A stretch of 64,000 nt of DNA, taken from the NCBI RefSeq assembly GCF_009914755.1, contig NC_060947.1. One strand, 5' to 3'. Shown piece by piece: positions 12,966 through 39,474 of this stretch; the first letter of the stretch is position 1, and each line of letters starts with the position of its first letter. The notes under the pieces are model-generated. The model was given only the letters and a program-made list of their open reading frames with translations. It was not told the origin of the DNA and made no database searches. Position numbers and translations under genes: made by a program. The DNA is from the human T2T-CHM13v2.0 reference genome, Homo sapiens.

Positions 12966-13610
12966 GCCTGATGGGGCCAGAGGCGGTCCTCTAAGGTACA
13001 AGAACCAGGGTAGGGGTCCTGATGGCTGATGTCTAAGGGAAGTAAGGATTTACAGATCTACAGTAAAAGTTGGAAGGGAGGAGCAGCAGCTGGAATCATA
13101 CAGTCTGCTCAAAATCAGGCTAGTTAGAAAAATTTGTAAAGGGCTACAATGAGCCAGAGATTAAATGTAACCTGCTTGTGAACAACAATATGGTTTGTTG
13201 GAGAAGAATTAAACAAGTTATTTTGTGAGATAACAGAGGATATGGATTCAATACATTTCTGTGTACCTACTATGAGAACTTATAACTGTCCAGAGGAATA
13301 GTCTGAAAGTGAGAAGTAACAAAACAAGAAGCTACCTACACTGAGTCCTATGACAGCTGAAGGCCCTTGCAGCCACTGCTCCAGGGCAGCTGGAGGGGTT
13401 GATATGAGAAGTTTGTTCAAAGTCCACATCCTTCAACAAAGTGGGGAGCAAAATTCCACTGAGCTACAAATGGAAAGCTATTGAGGTGTGATGGAAGGAG
13501 TCTTCACTTTTACATCAGGCACATTCTATTTGGAATCTTGATCTCAAACATACAACCGGTATGACCTTTGGGAACCCGTGTAACCTAGTTGAAGCTCAGT
13601 TTCCATATCA

Positions 13611-14280
<670 letters not shown>

Positions 14281-15529
14281 TACTTAAACATTATGTTAAG
14301 CTGCAATTTCTGAAGTCTCCGTCATTAAAACCTTCTAATGATTTATCCAAACAGAAGGATTTTGTATTTTATTTTCCCCCATTAAATTTGAACTTCTGCA
14401 AGCTATTTTGATGCAGGAGGCACTATTAGCTGGCAGCATGTTCAGAAACACTGCAGCAAGTTACCTTGTCTCCCAGGGCAAATTTTCCTAGGTACCATTG
14501 CTAAATAAATAGAGGTGGGGCCCTGGAGCCTCAGAGCCTGCCCCCTACCCACCCCACACTCCACGATGTTGCCTGGATGCATCTTCAGCCCACACATCCC
14601 ATTTTGTGTCTGCAGGCTGGGTCAAGGAGGTTGACAGAGTTTTCATTCTTTACAAGGTTGTCATTAAGGACATACATTTTTATTTCTCTCCATTAAATTG
14701 TTGATTCCATTCTATAAAAGCTAAAATGTAGTCTCCAAGTGTGGGACAAAGTAGGCGGCTTGCCATGCATCTGACTTTCTATTTAATTTAGATAGAAAGG
14801 GGTTGAGAGATCACAGTGCATGATTTAGCCTTATACCTTTCCATGCACCAGAAACTACCACTTCATAGGAAAGTAATACAAAGCCAGAATGCACCTTGCT
14901 CCTTGATATAGGATTATGCCTAGTGGAGAAATAAAAGAATGACTTGCAGAGCAAGGTGTTAGGACTAGGCCAGTCCAGTTCAGGGCTAATAAGGATTTAC
15001 TTTGACTCAGTTTGTTCTGTCGGGGAGTTGATCATTTAATGAACAAGAAACTGTCACTCTTGGGTATGTTCTGCTTCACTGCCTTTCTCACCCAGTTCCC
15101 TTGCACCATCCAGAGCAGACTGACCCCTATCTACTTGTCTTTCTCCTTGGAAATTCCCAACATGGAGGGGGCATTGTTCAGCCAAGACAGATGAAGAAAG
15201 GACATAAGGGAGAGGGCACCTGCCTGTCATTGCCTGGGGCAGGAGAGGGAGGAGGGAGTCTTTCAATTTCCCGTTACAGCTTTTCAGTATTCTCCTTCCC
15301 ACTGCTGGAAGTACTGAGCTTTGGTTCCACTAATACCCTTTCCATGCTCTGGGGAGATGCCAGGTTTGAGAAAGAGCTGCAATAACTGTCTGGTTTTCCT
15401 TTTCTGAATCTCATGGGGCCTAACCCTCAAATTTGAACCTTGAAGAAAAAAAAATCCTAAATATAACCAGTCAGCCCTCATAAACTAGTTTCCTTTCCTT
15501 CACTCCTTCCTCTGTTTGTGTCTATTAGA

Positions 15530-15735
15530 GAGATAGTACTGCATCGGGGTTACTGCATACACCTTGGGGAAGACTGATATTACTTAACTATCTGAATCTC
15601 AACTGCCTCATTCATATAATGCAGAAAAGAATAAAACCTACATCCCTAGTGTTTTTGTGAGAATTTGAAACATATAAAACATTTAGAAAAATATCCAGCA
15701 CAAAGTAAGTGCTATGTAAGTGCTAGCTATTATTA
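15530..15735 (+). mobile_element. MIR
   Basis: TTACTTAACTATCTGAATCTC...AAGTGCTAGCTATTATTAT 3' end. Confidence 0.6.
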
Positions 15736-16062
15736 TGTCATGAAGAAGATAGGGATGGATGAAGATGAAAACAAACAGATGCTGTAGAATTTCAGAATTC
15801 TGAAGATGAAAGCTGATCTAGAGATCAGCTGGTTTATGTCACTCATTTTACAGATAAGGAAACCAAGGCCCAGACAGAGGAAATGCTGGATTCCCACATT
15901 AAAACTCTTTCTATAATGTTACATCTCAGCTAATTTTATGCCTAAGGTGGTCCAACTCTGGTTTATCTATTCTTCCAGTCAACACATAGCAAAGGATTGT
16001 CATAATGCACAACTCCAGGAAGTTGTGCAATATAGTGGCTCTATGTCTAGGTGGTGAAATAC

Positions 16063-16880
<818 letters not shown>

Positions 16881-36627: not shown

Positions 36628-36766
36628 ATGTATTTGTTTATTTCATTTTAGAGATGGGGGTCTTGCCATGTTGCCCAGGCTGGTCTCAAACTCCTGGGCT
36701 CAAGCATCCTCCCACCTCAGTCTCCCAAATTGCTGGGATTACAGGCGTGAGCCACCACACCTGGCT
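36628..36766 (-). mobile_element. Alu left monomer (FLAM_C-like)
   Basis: Monomer with a perfect 19-bp TSD AGAATTCTGGGTCTTTAAA. Confidence 0.92.
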
Positions 36767-37076: not shown

Positions 37077-37365
37077 GGCCGGGCATAGTGGCTCACGCCT
37101 GCAGTCCCAGCACTTTGAGAGGCCACACTGGGAGAATTGCTTGAGCCCAGGAGTTTGAGACCCAACTTAGGCAGCATGGTGGAACCCTGTCTCTACAAAA
37201 ACTTAAAATTTAGCTGGGCATGGTAATGCATGCACCTGTAGTTCCTGCTACTCAGGAGGCTGAGGCAGGAGGATCCCTTGAGCCCAGGAGGTCGAGGCTG
37301 CAGTGAGCCATGATTGCACCTCTACACTCCAGTCTGGGTGAAAGAGTGAGACCCTGCCTCCAAAA

Positions 37366-37399
<34 letters not shown>

Positions 37400-37415
37400 T
37401 AAATATATATAAATT
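37077..37415 (+). mobile_element. Alu (AluJ-like) with poly(A)-(TA)n tail
   Basis: Dimer; TSD AAATACAGGTTCTG / AAATGCAAGTTCTG. Confidence 0.94.
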
Positions 37416-37484
37416 AAATGCAAGTTCTGATTCAGGAGGTCTAGGGTGAGGCCTTAGGGTCTTTGTTCCTTAAAAGCTTCCAGG

Positions 37485-38052
37485 ATGCACTGCGTGGTAT
37501 CTGCACTCAGCAGTTTACTCCTGCTAGGGTGTTCAAAGGTCAGTGCCATAGAAATCCAGTATCTGGTTTCATTGGTTTTCTTGGCTTTGTGCTTGTTAAA
37601 CCTGGTATTTCTATTGATACAGCATTTGTATAGGTTTCTCATACTCTTCAGTTTGATATATTCTAAGAGTAAGCAATGCTTTTCTTTTTCTAAGGTGTCA
37701 AATTGAGAATGAAGCAGATCCTCCTACTGTGAAAATGACCCTAAAGTAAATTGGTTGAAGAAATTAGATCCCAAAGATTCTTGGTGAATTCTGATGCCTT
37801 CATCAGTATATTCATATTAAAAAGAGATGAAAGAAACCAAAATAAAAGAATTACGGGCTGACAGGACAACTGGATTAAGCATCAGTTCTATTAAAAAGGG
37901 CTAACTTGAAGATATTAATAAATCTCTTGAAGACAAATTTTGACTCCAGCTCTTTAGAGGATCCAAAGTGACCTTGATGGACAGTAGAAGGGATTACAAC
38001 ATAAAATTCCTTGAATAAAAATGTATTGATTTAAAAACAAAACAAAACAAAA
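37485..38052 (+). pseudogene. Processed retrocopy: snoRNA, downstream intron remnant, spliced 3' exons of the host gene (TAF1D-like) and poly(A)
   Basis: TSD AAAAGCTTCCAGG (37472-84) / AAAGGCTTCCAGG (38053-65); acceptor TTTTCTTTTTCTAAG|G at 37694; AATAAA 38014-19; A-rich tail from 38033. TAF1D identity is from recall. Confidence 0.82.
37486..37624 (+). ncRNA. SNORA8: H/ACA snoRNA retrocopy, SNORA8 (ACA8) family
   Basis: Matches my recall of SNORA8 (TGCACTGC.TGGTATCTGCACTCAGCAGTTTAC...). Stem GCACTG/CAGTGC (37487-92, 37541-46), H box ATAGAA 37548-53, second stem CAGTA/TATTG, ACA at 37619-21, 3 nt before the inferred end. Confidence 0.85.
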
Positions 38053-38610
38053 AAAGGCTTCCAGGTGATACCAATGCTGTTTGTCTATGGACCACACATT
38101 GAGTTGTAGGCCTCTAGTCCAAATCTGATGCTTGAATCCCCTACCTGGAACTTCCCCAACCTGGCTTTGCCTCAGAATCACCCAAGGAGCTTTGAAATGC
38201 AGACCCTTGAGTTCCACTCCAAATTTCTTGAGTCAGATTCTCTTGTAGGCTGCATATCTAGATTTTTTAAAAAGCTCCCCAGGTGATGTTGATACAACCA
38301 GATTTTCAGCTGTCTGATTTGGCATTTGTTAGCCACTAGCCTACACTGCATTCCTACCAAGTTACCTGGTCTTGCAGCTTCTGCTTAAGCCTTTCCAGGG
38401 AAAGAGTAAACTCCCTTGGGGGTGCTGAATGCATTTACAGAGAAGCACTAATCATAGTTCTTATATTTAGGTCTTTGACCCATTTTGAGTTAATTTTTGT
38501 ATATGGTATAAGGTATGGGTCCAATTTCTTTCTTTTGCATGTGGATATTCCATTTTCCCAGTGCCATTTGTTGAAAGAACTGTCTTTCTCCATTGAGTGG
38601 TCTTGGCACC

Positions 38611-39190: not shown

Positions 39191-39474
39191 AGATGAGACA
39201 GGGTTTCACTCTGTCACCCAGACTGGAGTACAGTGGCATGATCACAGCTCACCACAGCCTCGACCTCCTGAGCTCAGGTGATCCTCCTACCTCAGCCTCT
39301 TCAGTAGCTGGGATTATAGGTGCATGCCACCAAGCCCAGTTAATTTTTGTATTTTTTGTAGAAACAGTGTTTTCCCATGTTGCCCAGCTGGTCTCAAACT
39401 CCTGGGGTCAAGCAGTCTGCCAGCCTTGGCCTCCCAAAGTGCTGGGATTACAGGCATGAACTACTGTGCTTGGT
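39129..39474 (-). mobile_element. Alu (AluJ-like) with a long T-rich tail
   Basis: About 60-nt T-rich run and an antisense dimer. Confidence 0.94.

What the first reader, a model, noticed from the sequence alone, without database searches (positions are those of the whole stretch)
37472..38065. Retrotransposed fossil of a snoRNA-led, polyadenylated host-gene RNA (SNORA8, intron tail, spliced TAF1D-like exons)
Seen: a 568-bp insert between 13-bp TSDs at an L1-endonuclease-type TT|AAAA site. It begins within 1 nt of the 5' end of an H/ACA fold, continues about 70 nt to a polypyrimidine/AG acceptor (37694), then about 340 nt to AATAAA and an A tail. Knowledge (recall): SNORA8 lies in a TAF1D intron, further snoRNA-bearing introns lie downstream, and retrocopies of this layout are known as type-2 snoRNA retroposons, so the class is not new. 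Inference: the template was neither mature snoRNA nor mRNA, but an RNA whose 5' end was set by the H/ACA snoRNP, with the host intron's 3' part retained and downstream introns spliced. This resembles 5' snoRNA-capped polyadenylated (SPA) lncRNAs, best known with C/D caps, and implies an H/ACA-capped TAF1D-derived RNA existed in the germline.
Basis: partly seen in the sequence, partly recalled or inferred. Interest (0 to 1): 0.8.

Follow-up and report, generated by a model that had tools for sequence, protein, structure and literature searches.

The report
Known SNORA8-led TAF1D retrocopy fossil
This is an old, dead retrocopy of an RNA that began with the small nucleolar RNA SNORA8 and continued into the spliced, polyadenylated tail of its host gene TAF1D; this kind of element, and this very locus, were described in 2006.

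Summary
Window 37485-38051 is an L1-type insertion. It consists of a complete SNORA8 (37486-37624), the 70-nt remainder of its host intron, five TAF1D exons with four snoRNA-bearing introns removed, AATAAA, and an A tail. It sits between near-identical ~13-bp target-site duplications at a TT|AAAA site.

The parent is TAF1D on chr11. Of 26 exon-bearing TAF1D retrocopies with a resolved 5' boundary, 14 start at nt 1 of SNORA40, SNORA18 or SNORA8. None carries the intron upstream of SNORA8, and none carries TAF1D coding exons.

It is not new. The locus is ACA8b in Luo & Li 2006. Weber already proposed cleavage plus 5'-3' trimming to the snoRNA, with normal downstream splicing and polyadenylation.

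One useful residue remains: a 2024 review still treats H/ACA-capped SPA RNAs as only theoretical, and these fossils name exact TAF1D candidates to look for.

The parts
37470..37484 (+). L1-endonuclease-type target TT|AAAA and 5' target-site duplication AAAAGCTTCCAGG (37472-37484)
   Evidence: Read directly. Repeat search.
37485..37485 (+). One extra base (A) between the duplication and snoRNA nt 1. It is not templated by the parent, whose -1 base is T.
   Evidence: Weber reports 1-10 untemplated nucleotides at such junctions.
37486..37624 (+). Complete SNORA8 copy (H/ACA), 130 of 139 positions identical to the parent
   Evidence: cmscan gives 169.2 bits over model 1-139. Identity. RefSeq LOC124900495 has the same coordinates.
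37625..37694 (+). Retained 3' part of the SNORA8 host intron, down to the polypyrimidine/AG acceptor
   Evidence: Collinear with parent sense 14260-14328, 59 of 67 aligned positions identical.
37695..37736 (+). TAF1D exon A, the exon after the SNORA8 intron
37737..37783 (+). TAF1D exon B. The SNORA1 intron has been removed.
   Evidence: The aligned block (window 37737-37785) is 49 of 49 identical to parent 14821-14869; of this the exon is 47 nt, 37737-37783. GT donor in the parent.
37784..37855 (+). TAF1D exon C. The SNORD6 intron has been removed. The exon runs on to an apparent GC donor in the parent.
37856..37898 (+). TAF1D exon D. The SNORA32 intron has been removed. It carries the '+7' indel state of the oldest copies.
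37899..38035 (+). TAF1D last exon up to the proximal poly(A) site. The SNORA25 intron has been removed. AATAAA lies at 38014-38019.
38033..38051 (+). A-rich tail, interrupted by C. Its boundaries with the cleavage site and with the duplication are ambiguous by a few A's.
38052..38065 (+). 3' target-site duplication AAAAGGCTTCCAGG, with one extra G

Best explanation
This is a Type-3 snoRNA retroposon (snoRT): a non-functional fossil made when L1 machinery reverse-transcribed, in trans, a TAF1D-derived RNA.

The template RNA had three features:
- Its 5' end was the mature 5' end of SNORA8.
- It kept the 70-nt 3' part of the SNORA8 intron.
- Its four downstream snoRNA-bearing introns were spliced out, and it was cleaved and polyadenylated at TAF1D's proximal AATAAA site.

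Shown by sequence: the template's structure, the splice junctions, the poly(A) site, the TT|AAAA nick site, the target-site duplication, and the recurrence of the same 5' end.

Inferred:
- The H/ACA snoRNP assembled on the unspliced intron and blocked a 5'-3' exonuclease after an upstream cut.
- That cut was most plausibly an NMD-type or other endonucleolytic cleavage, giving a cytoplasmic 'cSPA-like' RNA that L1 ORF2p could reach.
- The copy has since decayed neutrally in an intergenic site.
For: Structure and parent:
- Anatomy and parent mapping.
- Reverse transcription runs 3' to 5', so it meets the snoRNA's 3' end first. A copy ending exactly at snoRNA nt 1 therefore marks the RNA's own 5' end, not a structural stop (inference).

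Recurrence of the 5' end:
- cmscan finds full-length leaders on exon-bearing copies: SNORA8 x2 (window, chr17), SNORA40 x8, SNORA18 x3. A fourth SNORA18-led copy is seen by BLAST only.
- Clear duplications abut nt 1 within 0-2 nt in at least 9 copies (read by eye for chr2_135.6 and chr8_134.8).
- 14 of 26 resolved exon-bearing copies start at a snoRNA's nt 1. 7 are truncated inside the leader snoRNA, and 5 start further downstream. Binomial P is 3e-15 or less under uniform truncation.
- A 966-nt query covering the SNORA8 intron's upstream 587 nt found nothing outside the parent for that part. All 16 first-look candidates were scored.
- Pfam TAF1D (PF15333) matches only the parent gene in the whole assembly, with 8 of 8 candidates scored. 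Ordinary mRNA retrocopies of this gene are therefore not detectable.

Independent events:
- The chrX and chr17 SNORA8-led copies carry different indel states of the evolving parent. chrX has the +7 state in exon D, the last-exon duplication, and CCACC. chr17 has +12, no duplication, and CCACCACC. They are independent events from different epochs.

Literature:
- Weber 2006 defines Type 3 and proposes this mechanism.
- Luo & Li 2006 list ACA8b and describe TAF1D (MGC5306) intron-plus-3'-exon retrocopies.
- Zacchini 2022 finds dyskerin-bound cytoplasmic TAF1D transcripts that retain H/ACA introns, and an NMD-dependent 5'-truncated EIF4A1/SNORA67 fragment.
Against: - No RNA data were available, so the snoRNP block, the nuclease and the cellular compartment are all inferred.
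- The EIF4A1 fragment mapped by 5'-RACE in Zacchini 2022 starts at the end of the upstream exon, not at snoRNA nt 1. Living-cell analogues do not yet show the exact end seen in the fossils.
- 12 of the 26 resolved copies do not start at nt 1. This is compatible with ordinary 5' truncation layered on top.
- The window copy's duplication is imperfect. The chr17 copy's duplication is ambiguous, because of an A-rich target and an Alu in its tail.
- Two SNORA40-led copies counted as full length have no identifiable duplication.
Confidence: 0.9

Rival explanations
1. This is an ordinary processed pseudogene of an intron-retaining, capped TAF1D mRNA. L1 reverse transcription happened to stop at the snoRNA's 5' end.
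For: 5'-truncated copies do exist in this family. Examples are chr6_38.6 (starts about nt 36 of SNORA8), chr5_24.1 and chrX_138.2, both with clear duplications inside the snoRNA.
Against: - For SNORA8 alone, 2 of 3 exon-bearing copies start at nt 1 (P about 6e-5). Across the family it is 14 of 26 (P 3e-15 or less).
- No copy anywhere contains the upstream part of the SNORA8 intron.
- No copy anywhere contains TAF1D coding exons.
Confidence: 0.04
2. The template was a capped transcript started at a cryptic intronic promoter right at the SNORA8 5' end.
For: It cannot be excluded from DNA alone for a single copy. One non-templated base sits at the 5' junction (37485).
Against: - The same exact 5' end recurs at four different H/ACA snoRNAs of this gene: SNORA40, 18, 8, and 1 by coordinates.
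- It also recurs at other genes' snoRNAs, for example U70 in RPL10 (Weber).
- The extra base is A, not the G often attributed to a cap (that attribution is recalled).
Confidence: 0.04
3. It is a template-switch chimera (L1 reverse transcriptase jumping from a TAF1D mRNA to a free SNORA8 RNA), or a DNA-level duplication of another copy.
For: Chimeric retrogenes are known. Luo & Li report one H/ACA-Alu chimera.
Against: - The 70-nt intron tail joins the snoRNA and exon collinearly with parent DNA. No jump is needed.
- The flanks, duplication and tail are unique to this locus.
- The only other full SNORA8-led copy (chr17) carries different parent-epoch indel states.
Confidence: 0.01
4. Whatever its origin, the copy is today a working SNORA8 paralogue, as the RefSeq snoRNA annotation implies.
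For: - The Rfam score of 169 bits is close to the parent's 174.6.
- H and ACA boxes are intact.
- Some snoRTs are expressed, according to passages of Weber and of Luo & Li.
Against: - The site is intergenic with no annotated host transcript (hub table).
- The RefSeq model is a cmsearch prediction.
- Luo & Li do not flag ACA8b as having the typical fold (no footnote a).
- The snoRNA part is not significantly better conserved than the rest. chrX vs chr17: 12 of 139 against 52 of 391 mismatches, Fisher P=0.17. chrX vs parent: 9 of 139 against 39 of 372, P=0.23.
Confidence: 0.08

Closest known systems
Type-3 snoRNA retroposons (snoRTs), Weber 2006, PLoS Genet 2:e205 (PMC1687206; passages read)
   Same: - Starts at the mature snoRNA 5' end.
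- Contains the entire downstream intron part, processed 3' exons and a poly(A) tail at the host gene's signal.
- Has a target-site duplication and an L1-type target site.
- Weber's proposed origin is endonucleolytic cleavage plus exonucleolytic trimming to the snoRNA 5' end.
   Different: Nothing essential. In the passages I read, Weber's worked examples are U70/RPL10, U17 and others. ACA8 and MGC5306 do not occur in his main text (0 occurrences). His supplementary figures were not read.
H/ACA retrogenes of Luo & Li 2006, NAR 35:559 (PMC1802619; passages and parts of Table 1 read)
   Same: - The locus itself is listed: ACA8b, intergenic, chrX:132014448, 'Retrogene with poly(A) tail'.
- ACA8c (chr17) and ACA8d/e (chr6) match the paralogues found here.
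- The paper describes retrocopies of 'partially processed, exon-containing hnRNAs' and names MGC5306 (= TAF1D) ACA40 copies with all 3' exons.
   Different: - In the passages read, the paper does not spell out that ACA8b carries spliced TAF1D exons.
- It attributes the copies to processing intermediates without the snoRNP-cap idea.
- It gives 95.0% identity, against 130 of 139 (93.5%) here.
SPA lncRNAs (5' snoRNA-capped, 3' polyadenylated; Wu et al. 2016) and the cytoplasmic NOP56/SNORD86 cSPA (Lykke-Andersen et al. 2018). Both known to me only through the review PMC11028025 and PMC9394076.
   Same: The inferred template has the same architecture: snoRNP-protected 5' end, poly(A) 3' end, and an exonuclease blocked by the snoRNP.
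   Different: - The known natural SPAs are all capped by C/D snoRNAs. H/ACA capping was shown only by swapping in SNORA5C.
- PWS SPAs arise from read-through after an upstream poly(A) cleavage and stay nuclear. Here the RNA comes from within a spliced host gene and must have met L1 proteins.
- Nothing about the RNA itself could be tested here.
Dyskerin-bound cytoplasmic H/ACA snoRNA-retaining transcripts, Zacchini et al. 2022 (PMC9394076; passages and section 7 part 1 read)
   Same: - They include TAF1D isoforms retaining H/ACA introns.
- They are polyadenylated and cytoplasmic.
- There is a dominant NMD-dependent 5'-truncated 3' fragment, shown for EIF4A1/SNORA67.
   Different: - The mapped 5' end lies at the end of the upstream exon, not at snoRNA nt 1.
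- No TAF1D 5' ends are reported in the text read. Additional files were not read.
Ordinary L1-made processed pseudogenes
   Same: Target-site duplication, A tail, TT|AAAA target, spliced exons.
   Different: - Lacks every upstream exon.
- Retains a snoRNA and part of an intron.
- The 5' end is defined, not random.

Membership tests
Type-3 snoRT (Weber 2006) | 5' end coincides with the mature snoRNA 5' end (0-10 untemplated nt allowed) | tested here: met
   The duplication ends at 37484, one extra A follows, and SNORA8 model nt 1 is at 37486.
Type-3 snoRT (Weber 2006) | Entire downstream intron part of the parental host gene is retained | tested here: met
   37625-37694 is collinear with the parent down to its AG acceptor.
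Type-3 snoRT (Weber 2006) | [quoted passage not shown] | tested here: met
   Five exon blocks. The four introns with SNORA1, SNORD6, SNORA32 and SNORA25 are absent. The copy ends at parent sense position 16293 after AATAAA.
Type-3 snoRT (Weber 2006) | Target-site duplication and L1-type insertion site | tested here: met
   13-nt versus 14-nt duplication with one indel, at a TT|AAAA site.
   Spliced exons are present. Definition.
SPA / cSPA lncRNA (as the template RNA) | An RNA whose 5' end is a snoRNP (no m7G cap) and whose 3' end is polyadenylated | not testable with these tools
   Only the DNA fossil is available. The architecture is consistent, but the cap status and snoRNP binding of the RNA cannot be read from DNA.
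SPA lncRNA (PWS type) | Made from read-through downstream of an upstream poly(A) cleavage, and retained in the nucleus | not tested
   By inference this does not apply: the template comes from inside a multi-intron gene and was retrotransposed.
Ordinary processed pseudogene | Copy of the mature, fully spliced mRNA | tested here: not met
   It retains the snoRNA and intron tail and has no upstream exon. PF15333 finds no TAF1D coding retrocopy anywhere.
Functional H/ACA snoRNA gene | H/ACA fold with H and ACA boxes | tested here: met
   169.2 bits against a gathering score of 38. AUAGAA hinge box, and ACA 3 nt from the 3' end.
Functional H/ACA snoRNA gene | Sits in a transcribed host intron in sense orientation, or has its own promoter, and is expressed | not testable with these tools
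   The hub table shows no host gene (intergenic). No expression data were available.

The most novel reading that the evidence does not exclude
H/ACA-capped, polyadenylated TAF1D RNAs, led by SNORA40, SNORA18, SNORA8 or SNORA1, were for tens of millions of years almost the only retro-competent RNA of this gene. At least 26 exon-bearing copies exist, against 0 copies with coding exons.

The same RNAs may still be made today as natural H/ACA 'cSPA-like' species. A 2024 review still calls this class theoretical. Their dyskerin-bound cytoplasmic state may be what gives them privileged access to L1 ORF2p.
Probability: 0.4. Interest if true: 0.45.

Novelty: already known. Interest (0 to 1): 0.2.

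Why it matters
As an element it is ordinary: a catalogued Type-3 snoRNA retroposon.

Its modest value is as a record. Together with its roughly 30 TAF1D-derived relatives, it documents that RNAs beginning exactly at an H/ACA snoRNA and ending in the host gene's poly(A) tail were made repeatedly in the germline. Natural SPA-type RNAs with H/ACA caps have not yet been formally reported (review PMC11028025).

The fossils therefore give exact 5' ends, splice patterns and poly(A) sites to search for in long-read or 5'-monophosphate data. They also preserve successive ancestral states of the TAF1D 3' exons and poly(A) signal.

Tried and rejected
- Searching the genome with the 3.4-kb and 8-kb parent stretches upstream of SNORA40, to look for retrocopies with upstream exons, was uninformative. 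Only 40 of 11,058 and 40 of 35,387 candidates were scored, and nearly all were interspersed repeats (Alu-length matches; about 950-1,300-nt matches of a repeat I did not identify). The Pfam PF15333 search replaced it.
- I tried to locate the TAF1D stop codon by scanning translated retrocopy frames against Pfam, to judge NMD sensitivity. This failed because the frames hold stop codons. I dropped the step, so whether the 3' exons are all UTR is undetermined.
Three were fetched in a smaller request. The remaining seven are known by coordinates only: chr11:110.30, chr17:70.23, chr3:70.30, chr11:113.00, chr11:19.71, chr6:169.85 and chr20:33.10 Mb. They are left out of the 26.
- chr7_101.2 was fetched without enough upstream sequence and is also left out.
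- A test for selection on the snoRNA part of the copy gave no signal.
- Dating by orthologous empty sites was not possible, because no other mammalian genomes are held.
- A search for a paper linking Type-3 snoRTs to SPA RNAs (terms snoRTs, SPA lncRNAs, sno-lncRNAs, retroposons; 2016 onward) returned 30 papers with at least 2 terms. None of the 12 listed holds 'retroposons'. This is only a weak negative.

Full report
**What is there**

The sequence at 37472-38065 reads as follows:
- TT | AAAAGCTTCCAGG, the 5' target-site duplication (TSD), at 37472-37484.
- One extra A at 37485.
- A complete SNORA8 at 37486-37624. Rfam RF00393 matches over model 1-139 at 169.2 bits, E=2.6e-34.
- 70 nt ending in a pyrimidine tract and AG (37625-37694).
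- About 340 nt ending in AATAAA (38014-38019).
- An A-rich tail from about 38033.
- AAAAGGCTTCCAGG at 38052-38065.

The two duplicated copies differ by one inserted G. The longest exact shared word is the 9-mer GCTTCCAGG. The RefSeq snoRNA model in the hub's table has the same coordinates as the Rfam match.

**The parent**

A search of the window's own assembly with 37485-38032 found the source on contig C11 at about 93.6467-93.6489 Mb, minus strand. Rfam on that locus finds, in transcription order: SNORA40, mir-1304, SNORA18, SNORD5, SNORA8, SNORA1, SNORD6 (Rfam snoZ40), SNORA32 and SNORA25. Pfam TAF1D (PF15333) matches two exons just upstream. The parent is therefore TAF1D.

BLAST of the insert against the parent gives one contiguous block and four exon-only blocks:
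- 37486-37721 matches SNORA8 nt 1 through the intron tail into the next exon (89.5% of 238).
- 37737-37785 matches an exon, 49 of 49.
- 37783-37845, 37855-37899 and 37926-38035 match three more exons. The last ends at the parent's proximal poly(A) site.

The parent shows AG acceptors and GT donors at these boundaries; one donor is apparently GC. The four introns that hold SNORA1, SNORD6, SNORA32 and SNORA25 are absent from the copy. A 13-nt stretch that at first looked extra turned out to be the 3' end of exon C, carrying an old indel.

**Are the 5' ends of relatives random?**

No. Own-genome searches, BLAST against the parent and cmscan of 29 loci show a family of TAF1D 3'-part retrocopies, each led by an H/ACA snoRNA.

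Exon-bearing copies with a full-length leader:
- SNORA8: the window and chr17:68.1 Mb.
- SNORA40: 8 copies.
- SNORA18: 3 by cmscan plus 1 by BLAST only (chr6:95.09 Mb).

That is 14 of the 26 exon-bearing copies whose 5' boundary I could resolve. Of the other 12:
- 7 are truncated inside the leader snoRNA. Two of these (chr5_24.1, chrX_138.2) have clear TSDs at the truncation point, and several others are disrupted by later insertions.
- 5 start further downstream.

Eight further copies were left out for lack of sequence. One of them (chr11:19.71 Mb) looks SNORA1-led from its coordinates.

TSDs abut snoRNA nt 1 within 0-2 nt in at least 9 copies. Most SNORA40-led copies begin with the parent's own -1/-2 bases, 'C' or 'AC'.

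Under uniform truncation the 14 of 26 has P of 3e-15 or less. For SNORA8 alone (2 of 3), P is about 6e-5.

No sequence anywhere in the assembly matches the 587 nt of the SNORA8 intron upstream of the snoRNA (16 of 16 candidates scored). No place other than the parent matches the TAF1D coding domain (8 of 8 scored). So this gene has left many snoRNA-led 3' copies and no detectable ordinary mRNA copy.

No copy led by the C/D snoRNAs SNORD5 or SNORD6 was seen with exons. There is one solo SNORD5 copy.

**Independence and age**

The retrocopies preserve successive states of the parent's 3' exons:

| Copy | Exon D | Last-exon tandem duplication | Exon A | Last base of exon A |
|---|---|---|---|---|
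| Window (chrX) | +7 | present | CCACC | T |
| chr17 SNORA8-led | +12 | absent | CCACCACC | T |

The window copy's class is shared with a SNORA40-led copy (chr7), a SNORA18-led copy (chr5:79.7) and chr13:96.5. It appears to be the oldest class. Since the chr17 copy has different states, the two SNORA8-led copies are separate events from different epochs of the gene.

Identity of the window copy to the parent:
- snoRNA: 130 of 139.
- Intron tail: 59 of 67.
- Exon A: 36 of 44.
- Exons B to last: 91.2% of 261.

If the parent snoRNA was constant, about 6.5% of change lies on the copy's own branch. With commonly quoted primate neutral rates (recalled, 1-2.2e-9 per site per year), that means tens of millions of years. 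I could not date it by empty sites.

The snoRNA part is not significantly better kept than the rest (Fisher P=0.17 and 0.23). This gives no sign of selection.

**Mechanism**

Because reverse transcription starts at the poly(A) tail, a copy that ends exactly at snoRNA nt 1 reports the 5' end of the RNA. The template was thus neither mature snoRNA nor mRNA. It was a SNORA8-5'-ended RNA that kept the rest of its intron, was spliced normally downstream, and was polyadenylated at the proximal site.

The most likely route (inferred):
1. The H/ACA snoRNP assembles on the intron.
2. The intron is not removed.
3. An upstream endonucleolytic cut occurs, followed by 5'-3' exonucleolytic trimming up to the snoRNP.
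4. L1 ORF2p uses the polyadenylated RNA in trans at a TT|AAAA site.

A cytoplasmic, NMD-linked version of this route fits Zacchini et al. 2022. They found dyskerin-bound cytoplasmic TAF1D transcripts retaining H/ACA introns, and an NMD-dependent 5'-truncated EIF4A1/SNORA67 fragment. That fragment's mapped end, however, is at the upstream exon's end, not at snoRNA nt 1.

**Comparison with the literature**

Weber 2006 (passages):
- Defines Type 1, 2 and 3 snoRTs. This element meets every Type-3 feature and not the Type-2 definition.

Luo & Li 2006 (passages and Table 1 rows):
- List ACA8b (chrX:132014448, intergenic, retrogene with poly(A) tail).
- Also list ACA8c (chr17), ACA8d/e (chr6), ACA18b-e and ACA40b onward.
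- Describe ACA40 copies carrying the MGC5306 (= TAF1D) intron and all 3' exons.
- The offset between their chrX coordinates and this assembly is similar for ACA8b (about 0.54 Mb) and ACA18e (about 0.60 Mb). There is only one SNORA8 copy on this chrX. The identification is therefore safe.

The 2024 review PMC11028025 (passages) says that the known natural SPAs are C/D-capped, that an H/ACA swap still makes an SPA, and that H/ACA-capped SPAs are expected but not yet found. I found no paper that explicitly ties Type-3 snoRTs to SPAs (a weak negative).

**Verdict**

The element, the locus and the mechanism were all published in 2006. What is left of interest is the precise, testable prediction of natural H/ACA-led polyadenylated TAF1D RNAs, and a tidy fossil series of the gene's 3' end.

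Noticed in passing
L021 about 1725-1735 (parent chr11, sense about 16270-16280), compared with window 38014-38019: Today's TAF1D proximal poly(A) signal reads AATAAC. 18 of 22 aligned retrocopies, including the window, have AATAAA there. The other 4 carry different single changes, and none has AATAAC. The parent's signal therefore appears to have mutated after the retropositions. 7 of the 22 copies use a distal site about 35-55 nt further on.
   Followed up: partly
Loci L025-L054, exon parts (alignments): The retrocopies record stepwise changes in the TAF1D 3' exons: exon D +7, then +12, then 0 nt; loss of a 13-19-nt tandem duplication in the last exon; CCACC to CCACCACC in exon A; and T to G at the last base of exon A. 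Together these give a relative order of insertion.
   Followed up: partly
Whole assembly: Pfam TAF1D (PF15333) matches only the parent gene. The gene thus has about 30 snoRNA-led or 3'-truncated retrocopies and no detectable copy of its coding exons.
   Followed up: yes
G000:C4:186301280-186301413, compared with L021:2597-2732 (-): An isolated 134-nt, 88%-identical match to the 3' part of the SNORD6 intron, ending at the exon C acceptor. No Rfam family fits it at E of 1 or less, apart from noise. The parent stretch folds as a long hairpin with z=-2.3. Its origin is unexplained.
   Followed up: partly
(parent sense 13155-16301): The H/ACA snoRNAs of TAF1D lead exon-bearing retrocopies (SNORA40, 18, 8, and 1), or solo/intron-tail copies (SNORA1, 32, 25). 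The two C/D snoRNAs do not: there is one solo SNORD5 copy at C8:142574834-142574912 and no SNORD6 copy.
   Followed up: partly
L042, L031, L050, L048 (chr3:180.4, chr10:36.5, chr5:79.7, chr13:111.6 Mb): Four copies carry 11-13 extra nt (TTTTTCCA.AG) before exon C. This indicates an alternative upstream acceptor in the source RNA. Some copies also skip the 38-nt exon at parent sense 13496-13533.
   Followed up: no
L047 1461-1506 (chr1:182.56 Mb): This copy holds 46 nt that lie 10 nt after SNORD6's 3' end in the parent, joined directly to exon C. An Alu sits just upstream. It could be odd splicing or a later rearrangement.
   Followed up: no
Window 36649-36765 (-), 37078-37362 (+), 39193-39340 (-); 37362-37412: Alu-type elements (sub-threshold Metazoa_SRP matches) flank the insert. 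The upstream one ends in a long A run followed by a (TA)n/(TATA) microsatellite about 60 nt before the retrocopy's target site.
   Followed up: no
L002 2080-2380 (chr17:68.1 Mb): The chr17 SNORA8-led copy landed in the A tail of an older Alu. A younger Alu was later inserted into its own A tail, so its target-site duplication is ambiguous.
   Followed up: partly
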